64,000 nucleotides of DNA, taken from the NCBI RefSeq assembly GCF_009914755.1, contig NC_060941.1, one strand, 5' to 3'. The translations under genes were made by a program, and so were the position numbers. How positions within the stretch are numbered: the stretch's first letter is position 1; every line of letters starts with the position of its first letter. Under the pieces are notes generated by a model that was not told the origin of the DNA, did no database searches, and saw only the letters and a list, made by a program, of their open reading frames with translations. Positions 9,116 through 13,271 of the stretch are shown one piece after another. Source of the stretch: the human T2T-CHM13v2.0 reference genome, Homo sapiens.

Positions 9116-9427
9116 GGCCAGGCGCGGTGGCTCATGCCTGTAATCCCAGCACTTTGGGAGGCTGAGGCAGGTGGATCATGAGGTCAGGAGATCAAGACCA
9201 TCCTGGCTAACAGGTGAAACCCTGTCTCTACTAAAAATACAAAAAAAATTAGCTGGGCGTGGTGGCGGGCTCCTGTAGTCCTAGCTACTCGGGAGGCTGA
9301 GACAGGAGAATGACGTGAACACGGGAGGCGGAGCTTGCAGTGAGCCAAGACTGCGCCTCTGCACTCCAGCCTGGGTGACAGAGCAAAACTCCATCTCAAA
9401 AAAAAAAAAAAAAAAAAAAAAAAAAAA
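9116..9427 (+). mobile_element. AluY with TSD gaatagtgatttgc
   Basis: TSD at 9102-9115 and 9429-9442; AluY-type gcggagcttgcagtgagc. Confidence 0.93.
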
Positions 9428-10092
9428 GGAATAGTGATTTGCACATAGAAGGGACTCAATAAATATTTGTTGAATGAATGAATATATGAAATAAAATCTT
9501 CCATGCTCTTGAAGAGAAGTATTTGTCATGTGACTGGTCTTATATGGCAGAATGTCCCTTGTTTACCATTCCTATTCCCTTCTAACCAAATCATGATATG
9601 TATTTTTAGGTATTCTTTGGCATTTCTTTTTGAACACCTGGAAAAATGCTAAAATATGGTTTAAAACTCAATGTTTGTGAATTAGGCTGTTAGGTGCAGC
9701 CTGACTTAAGGGATAAGGGCTGAATTATAGAGAAATTGAATTATGCTTTCAAATATGGTACGCATATGAAAGTAATACATGGTTGTTTTTTTAACTAGGT
9801 TAAATGTGGTAAATGCACTCTTTTAATTTAGTGTTTTATTAAATTTTGGTATATGTTGTGTTATAAGCATAAAAGTTTCTGAAAGAATTTTTGTGCCTAG
9901 AAATTGTGGGAATTGTTGCTTTCTTTAACTTTTGATTTGAAACAATCACAAATTACACTGGATTCTTAAAAATGTTGTAGGATCTTTAGGGAGCTCAACT
10001 GCAGTCCAGATGCTGATTTTTTTTTTTTTTAATACTTTAAGTTCTGGGATACACGTGCAGAATGTGCAGGTTTGTTACATAGCTATACTCGT
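9267..10092. repeat. inverted duplication, arm 1 (source)
   Basis: Reverse complement of 12449-13271. ORFs 9184..9504(-) and 13045..13290(+) both begin [25 protein letters not shown]. Confidence 0.95.
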
Positions 10093-10652
10093 GCCATGGT
10101 GGTTTGCTGCACCCATCAACCTGTCGTCTACCTTAGGTATTTCTCCTAATGCTATCCCTCCCCTAAACCCCCACCCCGCAACAGGCCCAGTGTGTGATGT
10201 TCCCCTCTGTGTGTCCATGTGTTTTCATTGCTCAACTCGTACTTATGAATGAGAACATGCAGTGTTTGATTTTCTGTTCCTGTGTTAGTTTGCTGAGAAT
10301 GATGGTTTCCAGCTTCATCCATGTCCCTGCAAAGGACATGAACTCATCCTTTTTTATAGTTGCATGGTATTCCATGGTGTGTATATACCACATTTTCTTT
10401 ATCCAGTCTATAATTGATGGGCATTTGGGTTGGTTGCAAGTCTTTGCTATTGTGAACAGTGCCGCAATAAACATAGGTGTACATGTGTATTTATAGTAGA
10501 ATGATTTATAATCCTTTGGGTATATACCCAGTAATTGGATGGCTGAGTCAAATGGTATTTCTAGTTGTAGATCCTTGAGGAATCGCCACACTGTCTTCCA
10601 CAATGGTTGAACTAATTTACACTCCCACCAACAGTGTAAAGGCATTTCTATG

Positions 10653-10965
10653 TCTCTCTCTCTTTTTTTTTTTTTCTTGAGATGGAGTCTCACTGTGTTG
10701 CCAGGCTGGAGTGTGGAGTGTGGTGGCATGATCTTGGCTCACTGCAACCTCCGCCTGCCAGGTTCAAGTAATTCTCCTGCCTCAGCCTCTCCACTAGCTG
10801 GGATTACAGGTGTGTGCCACCACACCCAGCTAATTTTTTGTATCTTTAGTAGAGACAGCGTTTCACCATGTTGGGCAGGATGGTCTTGATCTCTTGACCT
10901 TGTAATCTGCCCGCCTCGGCCTCCCAAAGTGCTGGGATTACAGGTGTGAGCCACCGCGCCTGGCC
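10653..10965 (-). mobile_element. AluSc-like element nested in the L1PA
   Basis: Interrupts L1 at acagtgtaaa...ttcctgtttctcca. Confidence 0.9.
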
Positions 10966-12448
10966 TTAAGAGTTCCTGTTTCTCCACCTCCTCTCCAGCA
11001 TCTGTTGTTTCCTGACTTTTTAATGATCGCCATTCTGACTGGTGTGAGATGGTATCTCATTGTGGTTTTGATTTGCATTTCTCTAATGACCAGTGATGAT
11101 GAGCTTTTTTTCCTGTGTTTTTTGGCCGCATAAATATCTTCTTTTGAGAAGTGTCTGTTTATATCCTTCGTCCACTTTTTGATGGGTTTTTTTTTTTTCT
11201 TGTAAATTTAAGTTCTTTGTAGATTCTGGATATTAGCCCTTGGTCAGATGGAGAGATTGCAAAAATTTTCTCCCATTCTGTAGGTTGCCTATTCACTCAT
11301 GATAGTTTCTTTTGCTGTGCAGAAGCTCTTTAATTTAATTAGATCCCATTTGTCAATTTTGGCTTTTGTTGTCATTGCTTTTGGTGTTTTAGTCATGAAG
11401 TCTTTCCCCATGCCTATGTCCTGAATGGTATTGCCTAGGTTTTCTTCTAGGGTTTTTATGGTTTTAGGTCTTATGTTTAAGTCTTTAATCAATCTTGAGT
11501 TAATTTTTGTATAAGGTATAACAAAAGGGCCCAGTTTCAGTTTTCTGCATATGGCTAGCCAGTTTTGCCAACATCATTTATTAAATAGGGAATCCTTTCC
11601 CCATTGCTTGTTTTTGTCAGGTTTGTCAAAGATCAGATGGTTATAGATGTGTGGTGTTATTTCTGAGGTATCTGTTCTGTTCCATTGGTCTATGTATCTG
11701 TTTTGGTTTCAGTACCATGCTATTTTGTTTACTGTAGCCTTGTAGTATGGTTTGAAGTCAGGTAGTGTGATGCCTCCAGCTTTGTTCTTGTTGCTTAGGA
11801 TTGTCTTGGCTCTACGGGCTCTTTTTTGGTTCCCTATGAAATTTAAAGTAGTTTTTTCTAATTCTGCAAGAAAGTCAATGGTAGCTTGATGGGGATAGTA
11901 TTGAATCTATAAATTACTTTGTGTAGTACAGCCATTTTCATGATATCGATTCTTCCTATTCATGAGCATGGAATGTTTTTTCATTTGTTTGTATCCTCTT
12001 TTATTTCCTTGAGCAGTGATTTGTAGTTCTCCTTGAAGAGGTCCTTCACATCCCTTGTAAGGTGTATTCCTAAGTATTTTATTCTCTTTGTAGCAATTGT
12101 GAATGGGAATTCACTCATGATTTGGCTGTTTGTCTGTTATTGGTGTATAGGAATGCTTGTGATTTTTGCACATTGATTTTGTATCCTGAAACTTTGCTGA
12201 AGTTGCTTCTCAGCTAAAGGAGATTTTGGGCTGAGACGATAGGGTTTTCTAAATATACAGTCATGTCATCTGCAAACAGAGACAGTTTGACTTCATCTTT
12301 TCCTATTCAAATACCCTTTATTTTTTTCTCTTGCCTGATTGCCCTGGCCAGAACTTCCAATACTATGTTGTATAGGAGTGGTGAGAGAAGGCATCCTTGT
12401 CTTGTGCCGGTTTTCAAAGGGAATGCTTCCAGTTTTTGCCCATTCAGT

Positions 12449-13271
12449 ATGAGTATACCTATGTAACAAACCTGCACATTCTGCACATGTATCCCAGAAC
12501 TTAAAGTATTTAAAAAAAAAAAAAATCAGCATCTGGACTGCAGTTGAGCTCCCTAAAGATCCTACAACATTTTTAAGAATCCAGTGTAATTTGTGATTGT
12601 TTCAAATCAAAAGTTAAAGAAAGCAACAATTCCCACAACTTCTAGGCCCAAAAATTCTTTCAGAAACTTTTATGCTTATAACACAACATATACCAAAATT
12701 TAATAAAACACTAAATTAAAAGAGTGCATTTACCACATTTAACCTAGTTAAAAAAAAACACAACAACCATGTATTAGTTTCATATGCATACCATATTTGA
12801 AAGTGTAATTCAATTTCTCTATAATTCAGCCCTTATCCCTTAAGTCAGGCTGCACCTAACAGCCTAATTCACAAACATTGAGTTTTAAACCATATTTTAG
12901 CATTTTTCCAGGTGTTCAAAAAGAAATGCCAAAGAATACCTAAAAATACATACCATGATTTGGTTAGAAGGGAATAGGAATGGTAAACAAGGGACATTCT
13001 GCCATATAAGACCAGTTACGTGACAAATACTTCTCTTCAAGATCATGGAAGATTTTATTTCATATATTCATTCATTCAACAAATATTTATTGAGTCCCTT
13101 CTATGTGCAAATCACTATTCTTTTTTTTTTTTTTTTTTTTGAGATGGAGTTTCGCTCTGTCACCCAGGCTGGAGTGCAGAGGCACAATCTTGGCTCACTG
13201 CAAGCTCCGCCTCCCGTGTTCACGCCATTCTCCTGTCTCAGCCTCCCGAGTAGCTGGGACTATAGGCACCC
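12449..13271. repeat. inverted duplication, arm 2 (copy inserted in L1 ORF2)
   Basis: Interrupts contiguous L1 sequence cattcagtatga | gctgtgggtttg. Confidence 0.95.

What the first reader, a model, noticed from the sequence alone, without database searches (positions are those of the whole stretch)
9267..13271. ~820-bp inverted duplication: an L1 carries a reversed copy of its own 3' end, poly(A), TSD and flank
Seen: 12449-13271 is the reverse complement of 9267-10092 (roughly 23 substitutions plus homopolymer indels by eye, ~97%), with a ~2.36 kb spacer. The copied tract contains the last ~60 nt of the L1 and its poly(A), the TSD (a third, inverted copy tcagcatctg at 12526-12535), ~580 bp of flank and the right arm of the neighbouring AluY. 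It sits inside L1 ORF2. The L1 stops at cattcagtatga (12452) and resumes at gctgtgggtttg (13273), losing only ~5 nt versus the consensus as I recall it (cagtatgatattggctgtggg). There is short microhomology (atga/acga) at the left junction. Inference: a locally templated insertion by two template switches (FoSTeS/MMBIR or break repair), not a standard twin-priming L1 inversion, which never copies flank.
Basis: partly seen in the sequence, partly recalled or inferred. Interest (0 to 1): 0.8.

Follow-up and report, generated by a model that had tools for sequence, protein, structure and literature searches.

The report
Inverted templated insertion inside an L1
An old L1 element in the first intron of the NF1 gene carries an 820-base backwards copy of the DNA lying 2.4 kb away, a scar of DNA copying that switched template and came back, which is a known kind of mutation at an unusual size.

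Summary
Window 12451/12453-13271 is the reverse complement of 9267-10092: 20 substitutions in 813 aligned positions (97.5%) plus indels of 11, 7 and 1 nt. The copied tract holds the right part of an AluY with its poly(A), about 580 nt of unique flank found nowhere else in the genome, the L1 target-site duplication, the L1 poly(A) and the last 62 L1 bases.

It interrupts the same 5'-truncated, minus-strand L1 inside the ORF2 reverse-transcriptase domain. It replaces exactly 5 nt: 18 of 19 other L1 copies read TATTG there.

The L1's own terminal branch is 0.059 substitutions per site, against 0.0125 per arm. So the copy was made long after the L1 inserted, at roughly a fifth of its age. This excludes twin priming, 3' transduction and, barring gene conversion, any event during retrotransposition.

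Best reading: a DNA 3' end in the L1 annealed through 2 nt of microhomology 2.36 kb upstream, copied about 820 nt and rejoined 5 nt from its origin. This could be fold-back repair of a resected break or a replicative template switch (event order 3-2-1-4).

It is a clean, mid-sized member of a known class and of modest interest. Primate orthologues could not be examined.

The parts
9116..9427 (+). Full-length AluY with a 30-nt poly(A), flanked by its own TSD gaatagtgatttgc at 9102-9115 and 9429-9442. Its right part from 9267 lies in arm 1.
Evidence: Read from the sequence. Best identity to other genomic Alus is about 92%.
9267..10092 (+). Arm 1, the donor or template tract: Alu right part and poly(A), unique flank, L1 TSD, L1 poly(A) read as T14, and the last 62 nt of the L1.
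   Evidence: It is continuous with native context on both sides.
10007..10016 (+). L1 target-site duplication, copy at the L1 3' end (cagatgctga).
   Evidence: Read from the sequence. It is identical to 13571-13580.
10017..12452 (-). 3' part of the 5'-truncated L1: poly(A), 3' end, ORF2 C-terminal part and part of the RT domain. An Alu is inserted at about 10660-10965. Positions 10093-12450 form the 2.36-kb spacer between the arms.
   Evidence: 89-91% identity to 29 genomic L1 copies over 10970-12452. RVT_1 match of 12310-12525(-) at profile positions 104-144.
12453..13271 (+). Arm 2, the inserted reverse-complement copy of arm 1. The start is ambiguous by the 2-nt microhomology GA at 12451-12452. 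It contains the inverted TSD copy at 12526-12535.
   Evidence: The flank is present only twice in the genome.
13272..13272 (+). Single extra A at the right junction, explained neither by arm 1 at that position nor by the L1.
13273..13570 (-). 5' part of the truncated L1 (ORF2 RT domain). It resumes 5 nt (TATTG) beyond the point where the L1 was interrupted.
   Evidence: 18 of 19 copies. RVT_1 match of 13263-13613(-) at profile positions 18-107.
13571..13580 (+). L1 target-site duplication, copy at the truncated 5' end (cagatgctga).
   Evidence: Read from the sequence.

Best explanation
This is a post-insertional, DNA-templated inverted insertion, that is, a large template-switch mutation.

Inferred sequence of events:
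1. Long after a 5'-truncated L1 had inserted (minus strand) beside an older AluY in NF1 intron 1, a plus-strand DNA 3' end arose at what is now 12452, either at a double-strand break or at a stalled fork.
2. That end left its template and annealed through about 2 nt (GA on the end, TC at 10089-10090) to plus-strand-sense sequence 2.36 kb upstream. The template could have been the same strand folded back after resection, or the opposite template at a fork.
3. It was extended for about 820 nt. It copied backwards through the L1 3' end, poly(A), TSD, unique flank and half of the AluY, as far as 9267.
4. The new end was released and rejoined to the original duplex 5 nt beyond the departure point, with one extra A.

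The result is an 820-bp, originally perfect inverted repeat with a 2.36-kb spacer. The two arms have since diverged independently by 2.5%. In the four-point notation the switch points lie in the order 3-2-1-4.

What is shown: the structure, the direction of copying, the 5-nt replacement, the junction sequences and the relative age. What is inferred: the enzymology and whether a break or a fork started it.

The element has no evident function. Its consequences are a long intronic dsRNA-forming repeat in NF1 pre-mRNA and a possible substrate for inversion or fold-back.
For: - Structure and polarity. Arm 1 is in native context and arm 2 interrupts a collinear L1. The two L1 pieces abut in the RVT_1 profile, at positions 18-107 and 104-144.
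- Local template. The flank exists only in these two places in the genome.
- Net replacement of 5 nt. 18 of 19 L1 copies read TATTG there.
- Junctions. On the left there are 2 nt of exact microhomology (GA), or 3 of 4 for ATGA against ACGA. On the right there is a 1-nt filler.
- Timing. The arm-to-arm K2P distance is 0.0251, so 0.0125 per arm. The L1 terminal branch is 0.0587 in a GTR tree with 29 relatives, and its clade-mates have 0.053-0.072. The L1 has 65 private differences in 1393 well-conserved sites, 4.7%.
- Independent divergence of both arms. Of the 8 Alu-part differences, 4 are derived in arm 1, 2 in arm 2 and 2 are unpolarised. Nine states are shared by both arms against the majority of 26 other window Alus; some of these may be subfamily-diagnostic rather than copy-specific, and the rest were changes already present when the copy was made.
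- No sign of patchy gene conversion. Differences are spread evenly: KS p = 0.12, and the longest identical run is 151 nt against a simulated mean of 140, P = 0.31.
- Geometry matches known events. Human fold-back inverted duplications have spacers of 766-70,466 bp (median 3,428) and 2-8 bp of inverted microhomology (PMC3907307, passages read). In yeast, fold-back synthesis at one break end followed by end joining to the other gives local inverted insertions (PMC11724301, passages). The four-point model describes 3-2-1-4 events that create inverted repeats (PMC5453318, passages).
Against: - No outgroup was available, so the ancestral state (L1 without arm 2) is inferred and not observed.
- The age ratio assumes no gene conversion between the arms. 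One complete homogenisation followed by quiet divergence would look the same.
- Microhomology of 2 nt is weak. In the simulation of PMC3907307, 134 of 1000 random junctions had at least 2 bp.
- The tract (820 nt) and the jump (2.36 kb) are far larger than the short-range template switches catalogued so far. Those searches allow tens to hundreds of nt (PMC7954356, passages), and the yeast fold-back insertions are 2 to about 150 bp.
- Sequence alone cannot separate a DNA template from an RNA template.
- The index of dispersion of the differences is 1.9, because 5 of the 20 fall in the first 50 aligned positions, in the CpG-rich Alu end.
Confidence: 0.8

Rival explanations
1. RNA-templated repair. 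A break in the L1 was mended by reverse transcription of a local transcript. One candidate is nascent NF1 intron-1 pre-mRNA: its cDNA is exactly the plus-strand sequence of arm 2, primed from the 3' end at 12452. The other is an antisense read-through transcript of the L1 captured without endonuclease. L1 ORF2p or a cellular polymerase with reverse-transcriptase activity would do the copying.
For: The geometry is identical to the DNA-templated model: the template must have plus-strand sense, and NF1 pre-mRNA has it (the annotation puts NF1 on the plus strand, with both arms in intron 1). Junctions lacking a TSD and carrying a small deletion fit endonuclease-independent capture. ORF2p-linked template switching and cDNA self-annealing are described in PMC11702581 (passages).
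Against: No RNA signature was found. There is no poly(A) at the 3' end of the tract, no TSD and no endonuclease-type site at either junction. There is no excess of A-to-G changes in arm 2, which would be expected if an edited Alu-containing pre-mRNA had been copied. Neither of the 2 polarised arm-2-derived changes in the Alu part is A-to-G, and only 2 of 10 unpolarised differences in the unique part are A/G in that direction. A DNA template is the simpler assumption.
Confidence: 0.08
2. An event during the original L1 retrotransposition. The growing first-strand cDNA (window plus strand, primed at 10016/10017) snapped back on itself at 12452. It copied its own start and then the upstream target DNA, and returned to the L1 RNA 5 nt further on. 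The arms were later homogenised by gene conversion.
For: The plus strand is indeed the cDNA strand, so the polarity fits. Returning to nearly the same place on the template is natural if the RNA stayed bound. Self-annealing of cDNA ends to resected target DNA is proposed for L1-linked fold-backs in PMC11702581 (passages).
Against: The arms should then be about twice as diverged as the L1 is from its source, roughly 12%, but they differ by 2.5%. The differences are evenly spread, with no mosaic of converted and unconverted stretches. The model also requires the AluY to predate the L1, which is unproven.
Confidence: 0.05
3. Retrotransposition products: twin-priming inversion, or 3' transduction of a read-through transcript re-inserted into the parent element by target-primed reverse transcription.
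For: The tract begins with an L1 3' end and poly(A) followed by downstream flank, which is the order expected of a read-through (transducing) transcript.
Against: For twin priming, the tract contains TSD, unique flank and Alu, which are not on the L1 RNA, and the L1 segments on both sides have the same orientation. For 3' transduction, there is no terminal poly(A) at 13271, no TSD around arm 2 (5 nt are lost instead) and no T-rich nick site. The parent L1 is also 5'-truncated within the RT domain and has no promoter of its own.
Confidence: 0.02
4. Assembly artefact: a mis-joined or chimeric read consensus in the T2T assembly.
For: None found. Only one assembly could be examined.
Against: The arms differ at 20 positions and 3 indels, with derived changes in both. 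Both junctions are clean and the L1 is otherwise intact. NCBI's repeat masking of the same assembly (given with the finding) breaks at 12535 and 13110, as expected.
Confidence: 0.02

Closest known systems
Template-switch mutations under the four-point model, event type 3-2-1-4 (Loytynoja and Goldman 2017, PMC5453318; Walker et al. 2021, PMC7954356)
   Same: [quoted passage not shown] This creates a new inverted repeat that can form an RNA hairpin. The order of switch points along the reference is 3 (9267), 2 (10092), 1 (12452), 4 (5 nt beyond point 1).
   Different: Scale. The published searches are limited to templates within tens to hundreds of nt and mostly find copied fragments of tens of nt. 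They also mask repeats. Here the copied fragment is about 820 nt and the jump is 2.36 kb, inside repeats.
Fold-back inverted duplications of human chromosomes (Hermetz et al. 2014, PMC3907307)
   Same: The inverted copy is separated from the original by a single-copy spacer of a few kb (median 3.4 kb there, 2.36 kb here). There are 2-8 bp of inverted microhomology at the spacer-to-inversion junction (2 nt here). The proposed start is resection of a break and intrastrand pairing.
   Different: In those cases synthesis runs on for kb to Mb and gives a dicentric chromosome with a terminal deletion. Here synthesis stopped after 820 nt and the end rejoined its own other side, so the chromosome stayed intact.
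Hybrid fold-back synthesis plus end joining at double-strand breaks in yeast (PMC11724301), and snap-back templated insertions of polymerase theta end joining (PMC4912351 and PMC11292364, search listing and abstracts only)
   Same: One break end primes synthesis on itself at a short inverted microhomology. The new DNA is unwound and joined to the other end with 0-5 bp of microhomology, leaving a local inverted templated insertion and little or no deletion.
   Different: Reported insertions are 2 to about 150 bp with loops of tens of nt. Here the insertion is 820 bp with a 2.36-kb loop, in a primate germline.
FoSTeS/MMBIR complex rearrangements (named in PMC5453318 and PMC9199198)
   Same: Two microhomology-level template switches with a templated, inverted insert.
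   Different: Those are usually described at scales of kb to Mb with copy-number change of genes. Here the net change is +815 nt within one intron.
L1 twin priming and L1-linked fold-backs (PMC11702581)
   Same: An inverted segment inside an L1, with a short deletion at the internal junction.
   Different: The inverted segment is not L1 RNA sequence but genomic flank plus the L1 end, and it is several-fold younger than the L1.

Membership tests
Template-switch mutation (four-point model, 3-2-1-4) | Fragment 2->3 is a reverse-complement copy of nearby sequence | tested here: met
   97.5% reverse-complement identity over 813 positions. The template is unique in the genome.
Template-switch mutation (four-point model, 3-2-1-4) | The copy replaces the 1->4 stretch, and the sequence on both sides is collinear with the ancestral sequence | tested here: met
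   18 of 19 L1 copies show that only TATTG is missing. The RVT_1 profile positions abut.
Template-switch mutation (four-point model, 3-2-1-4) | Short range (same fork; tens to hundreds of nt) | tested here: not met
   The jump is 2.36 kb and the copied fragment about 820 nt, against the search ranges quoted.
Template-switch mutation (four-point model, 3-2-1-4) | Ancestral state without the copy seen in a related genome | not testable with these tools
   No primate genome is held. Only the window's own genome could be searched.
Fold-back inverted duplication | Single-copy spacer of about 0.8-70 kb between the arms | tested here: met
   The spacer 10093-12450 is about 2.36 kb.
Fold-back inverted duplication | Inverted microhomology of at least 2 bp at the spacer-to-inversion junction | tested here: inconclusive
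   2 nt exact (GA/TC) and 3 of 4. The chance rate of at least 2 bp is about 13% in the simulation of PMC3907307.
Fold-back inverted duplication | Dicentric intermediate or terminal deletion | tested here: not met
   The copy is interstitial and the L1 continues 5 nt on.
L1 twin-priming 5' inversion | The inverted segment is L1 sequence from the same RNA, and the two segments have opposite orientation | tested here: not met
   The inverted tract holds flank, TSD and Alu. Both L1 pieces are on the minus strand.
L1 twin-priming 5' inversion | Same age as the insertion | tested here: not met
   0.0125 per arm against 0.0587 for the L1.
L1 3' transduction | The transduced flank ends in a second poly(A), and the whole is flanked by a TSD | tested here: not met
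   There is no poly(A) at 13271 and no TSD. 5 nt are lost.
FoSTeS/MMBIR | Microhomology at each template switch | tested here: inconclusive
   The left junction has 2 nt. The right junction has a 1-nt filler, or GC/GCT microhomology if a later 12-nt deletion is assumed.

The most novel reading that the evidence does not exclude
Arm 2 is a reverse-transcribed piece of nascent NF1 intron-1 pre-mRNA. In this reading a break in the L1 was primed on the local transcript (an R-loop-like situation), about 820 nt were copied into cDNA, and the end was rejoined. It would be a fixed germline example of transcript-templated break repair in a primate. The plus-strand sequence of arm 2 is exactly what such a cDNA would be, and nothing in the sequence excludes it.
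Probability: 0.07. Interest if true: 0.7.

Novelty: new member of a known kind. Interest (0 to 1): 0.32.

Why it matters
The finding is a very legible example of a mutation class that is poorly sampled at this size. Short-range template switches (tens of nt) and pathogenic fold-back duplications (kb to Mb) are both catalogued. A copy of about 0.8 kb across about 2.4 kb, healed with a 5-nt loss, lies between them, and it sits in repeats that the published searches mask.

Because the host is an L1, the pre-event sequence can be read from hundreds of paralogues, so both junctions are defined to the base without an outgroup. The same trick could be used genome-wide to count such events.

Locally, it places an 820-bp, 97.5% inverted repeat in intron 1 of a disease gene. 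The predicted RNA duplex has 799 paired nt and -1384 kcal/mol, against -228 to -244 for shuffled controls. By inference only, this repeat is a strong candidate substrate for RNA editing in the pre-mRNA. It is also a possible substrate for inversion of the 2.36-kb spacer or for fold-back rearrangement when the region is single-stranded (compare PMC10164571, abstract read). None of these consequences was tested.

Tried and rejected
- One literature search failed on a too-short term and was re-sent correctly. That search (NF1, intron 1, inverted repeat, LINE-1) listed 15 of 55 papers. None of the titles or abstract openings in the listing describes this repeat, and the papers' full texts were not opened, so this is no proof that it is unpublished. 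The inverted-repeat maps of PMC11794170 (at least 200 bp and 80% identity, including T2T-CHM13) should contain it, but the paper's text has no mention of NF1 and its data sit on an outside repository I could not read.
The order of AluY and L1 insertion therefore remains open.
I then listed stop-to-stop frames and scanned six of them. Two matched RVT_1 and four matched nothing.
- Gene conversion: looked for as a mosaic pattern of differences and not found.
- Clustering of differences at the right junction as a sign of error-prone synthesis: rejected. Of the 4 differences at 9270-9282, 2 are derived in arm 1 (the template), 1 in arm 2 and 1 is unpolarised.
- A-to-G excess as a sign of an edited RNA template: not found.
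- The L1 subfamily was not named, because no repeat library is available. The ladder-like tree only places it in the oldest tier sampled.
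Full report
OBSERVATION

A scan of window 8000-15000 for inverted repeats returned four abutting pieces of one pair:
- 9267-9420 with 13118-13271 (94%)
- 9409-9792 with 12757-13140 (97%)
- 9786-10032 with 12510-12756 (99%)
- 10017-10090 with 12451-12524 (96%)

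A local alignment joins them: 827 columns, 790 identical, 18 mismatches and 19 gap columns. An end-to-end alignment of 9267-10092 with the reverse complement of 12451-13271 gives 813 aligned pairs and 20 substitutions (15 transitions, 5 transversions; 8 CpG-type, 12 not). That is p = 0.0246 and K2P = 0.0251. There are three real indels: 11 nt in the Alu poly(A), 7 nt at 9786, and 1 nt next to the L1 poly(A).

By segment the differences are:
- 8 of 132 in the Alu part
- 0 of 19 in the aligned poly(A)
- 10 of 588 in unique flank plus TSD
- 2 of 74 in the L1 poly(T) and 3' end

The 578-nt unique flank (9429-10006) has exactly two full-length matches in the 3.1-Gb genome, the two arms. All other matches cover only its first 60-70 nt, which look like a common old repeat. 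Across the whole window, the scan found 73 inverted pairs of at least 150 nt. Among the 25 longest of these, only the two pieces of this pair exceed 88% complementarity. The rest are Alu-sized and 77-88%.

ANATOMY (read unless stated)

From left to right on the plus strand:
- A full AluY lies at 9116-9427, with a 30-nt poly(A). Its own TSD gaatagtgatttgc is at 9102-9115 and 9429-9442.
- Unique sequence runs to 10006.
- The L1 TSD cagatgctga is at 10007-10016.
- T14 at 10017-10030 is the L1 poly(A) on the other strand.
- The L1 then runs in minus orientation to 13569/13570, followed by the second TSD copy at 13571-13580.
- The L1 is interrupted twice: by an Alu at about 10660-10965, and by arm 2 at 12453-13271.

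Arm 1 is continuous with its native context on both sides, and arm 2 interrupts the L1. So arm 2 is the copy.

COLLINEARITY OF THE L1

A search of the genome with 12150-12452 gave 19 other L1 loci with flanks. In 18 of the 19, the motif ...cattcagtatga is followed by TATTG and then gctgtggg.... The 19th has no right-hand match. In the window the same two motifs are separated by arm 2 plus one A (13272). The insertion therefore replaced exactly 5 nt.

There is independent support at the protein level. The minus-strand open frame 13263-13613 matches Pfam RVT_1 at profile positions 18-107 (E = 1.2e-14). Frame 12310-12525 matches positions 104-144 (E = 2e-7) (two of six frames scanned matched, four matched nothing). 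The insertion thus splits the ORF2 reverse-transcriptase domain, and the two pieces abut in the domain.

JUNCTIONS

Left junction: the L1 ends ...GTATGA and arm 2 continues GTATAC.... Arm 1 at the matching place reads TATACTCGTGCC, so GA/TC (2 nt) is shared, and ATGA against ACGA is 3 of 4. In the 23 of 29 L1 relatives whose 3' end could be aligned, this site mostly reads TATACATG or TATACACG. The T at 10089 is therefore special to this copy, and the microhomology at the time of the event may have been 1 to 4 nt.

Right junction: arm 2 ends ...GGCACCC, followed by A and then the L1. Arm 1 continues with GCC and the L1 with GCT. The A is either a 1-nt filler or, less simply, the remnant of a slightly longer copy that later lost 12 nt between two CCC runs. 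This cannot be resolved without an outgroup.

TIMING

A search with 10970-12452 gave 29 L1 relatives at 89-91% identity. In a GTR tree the window's L1 has a terminal branch of 0.0587. The tree has the ladder shape usual for primate L1. The window's copy sits in the oldest tier sampled, sister to L030 (0.053) and next to L043 and L048 (0.066 and 0.072). The youngest tier has branches of 0.015-0.022. A cruder count gives 65 private differences in 1393 well-conserved sites, 4.7%.

Each arm has accumulated about 0.0125 (half of 0.0251). The L1 is thus about 4-5 times older than the split of the arms.

With the neutral divergences between apes that I recall (not computed here), 2.5% between the arms falls between the human-gorilla and human-orangutan values. 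That suggests very roughly 7-15 million years, against several tens of millions for the L1.

Both arms have changed since. Of the 8 differences in the Alu part, polarised with 26 other Alus of the window, 4 are derived in arm 1, 2 in arm 2 and 2 are ambiguous. Nine states are shared by both arms against the majority. Some of these nine are probably subfamily-diagnostic rather than copy-specific.

Gene conversion could make the arms look young. But the differences are spread evenly (KS p = 0.12), and the longest identical run is 151 nt against a simulated mean of 140 (P = 0.31). There is no mosaic of converted and unconverted tracts.

MECHANISM

The new plus-strand DNA of arm 2 is complementary to plus-strand-sense sequence. 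A plus-strand 3' end at 12452 must therefore have paired with a template of plus sense at about 10090 and been extended toward 9267. Three templates have that sense:
- the same strand folded back on itself, after the minus strand was resected for at least 3.2 kb from a break;
- the other parental strand at a replication fork, or a sister chromatid;
- NF1 pre-mRNA.

After about 820 nt the end was released and joined 5 nt from where it left. In the four-point notation of PMC5453318 (passages read) the switch points lie in the order 3-2-1-4. That type creates a new inverted repeat and can arise within a strand or between strands.

The loop size (2.36 kb) and the 2-nt microhomology fit human fold-back inverted duplications, which have spacers of 766-70,466 bp (median 3,428 bp) and 2-8 bp of microhomology (PMC3907307). 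The healing of the break fits the yeast model. In that model one end primes fold-back synthesis, and the unwound product is captured by the other end with 0-5 bp of microhomology (PMC11724301).

I cannot tell a break from a fork. I put 0.8 on the class as a whole: a post-insertional, DNA-templated switch and return.

RIVALS

- Twin priming and 3' transduction fail on defining features. The tract holds flank, TSD and Alu. It has no terminal poly(A) and no TSD, and 5 nt are lost. The L1 pieces have the same orientation.
- A snap-back of the first-strand cDNA during the original insertion has the right polarity and has precedents in concept (PMC11702581). It predicts arms about 12% apart, so it needs a complete later homogenisation.
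- An RNA template is not excluded, but no RNA mark was found. There is no poly(A), and there is no A-to-G excess in arm 2 (0 of 2 polarised changes in the Alu part; 2 of 10 unpolarised in the unique part).
- An assembly error is unlikely given 20 substitutions and 3 indels with changes on both arms.

COMPARISON AND NOVELTY

This works like a template-switch mutation or a healed fold-back, and I file it as a new member of that known kind. It fails the 'short-range' criterion of the catalogued template switches, whose searches allow templates within tens to hundreds of nt and mask repeats. It also fails the 'dicentric or terminal deletion' criterion of clinical fold-backs. It is an intermediate-scale case.

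My searches turned up no description of this particular repeat in NF1 intron 1. I judged them from listings and from the passages cited, and supplementary tables and outside repositories were not read. That is no proof that the repeat is absent from print.

CONSEQUENCES (inferred, not tested)

Both arms lie in NF1 intron 1, on the transcribed strand's template. The pre-mRNA can therefore form a duplex of 799 paired nt (longest uninterrupted stack 164) at -1384 kcal/mol, against -228 to -244 for five shuffles of one arm. Such a duplex is far longer and better matched than the inverted Alu pairs of the window (77-88%). The repeat could also support inversion of the spacer or fold-back in single-stranded DNA (PMC10164571, abstract only).

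VERDICT

The interest is modest. The value lies in base-level clarity and in the idea of using repeat paralogues as the ancestral state to find more such events.

Noticed in passing
window 10007-10030 and 13571-13588: The L1 TSD is 10 bp exact (cagatgctga). It extends to 18 bp with one mismatch if the T-run is included (cagatgctgaT/Attttttt). With the 10-bp reading, the first-strand nick site would be ...CTGA/ATTT, which is unusual for L1 endonuclease. With the 18-bp reading, the primer end is a T7 run and the true poly(A) tail is only about 6-7 nt.
   Followed up: partly
window 10642-10965: A second Alu (minus orientation, poly(T) at 10663-10676) is inserted in the L1 spacer. About 20 nt (gcatttctatgtctctctctc) lie between the L1 sequence and the Alu tail and match neither. 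Its subfamily and TSD were not worked out.
   Followed up: no
window 8381-9005 versus 9116-9427: Two tandem minus-strand Alus lie just upstream of the plus-strand AluY and pair with it (8381-8575/9233-9427 at 84%; 8704-8850/9272-9418 at 76%). The copied tract ends at 9267, 5 nt beyond the inner edge of the second pairing. A hairpin in single-stranded DNA might have stopped the polymerase there. This is untested speculation.
   Followed up: no
window 9429-9495: The first 60-70 nt of the 'unique' flank match dozens of places genome-wide at 82-97%. This piece is probably the tail of an old interspersed repeat. Only the remaining 500 nt or so are truly single-copy.
   Followed up: partly
window 9786 / 12757-12763: The 7-nt indel between the arms (arm 2 has the extra bases, in a T/G-rich run) is not a homopolymer change. 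Which arm is ancestral is unknown.
   Followed up: no
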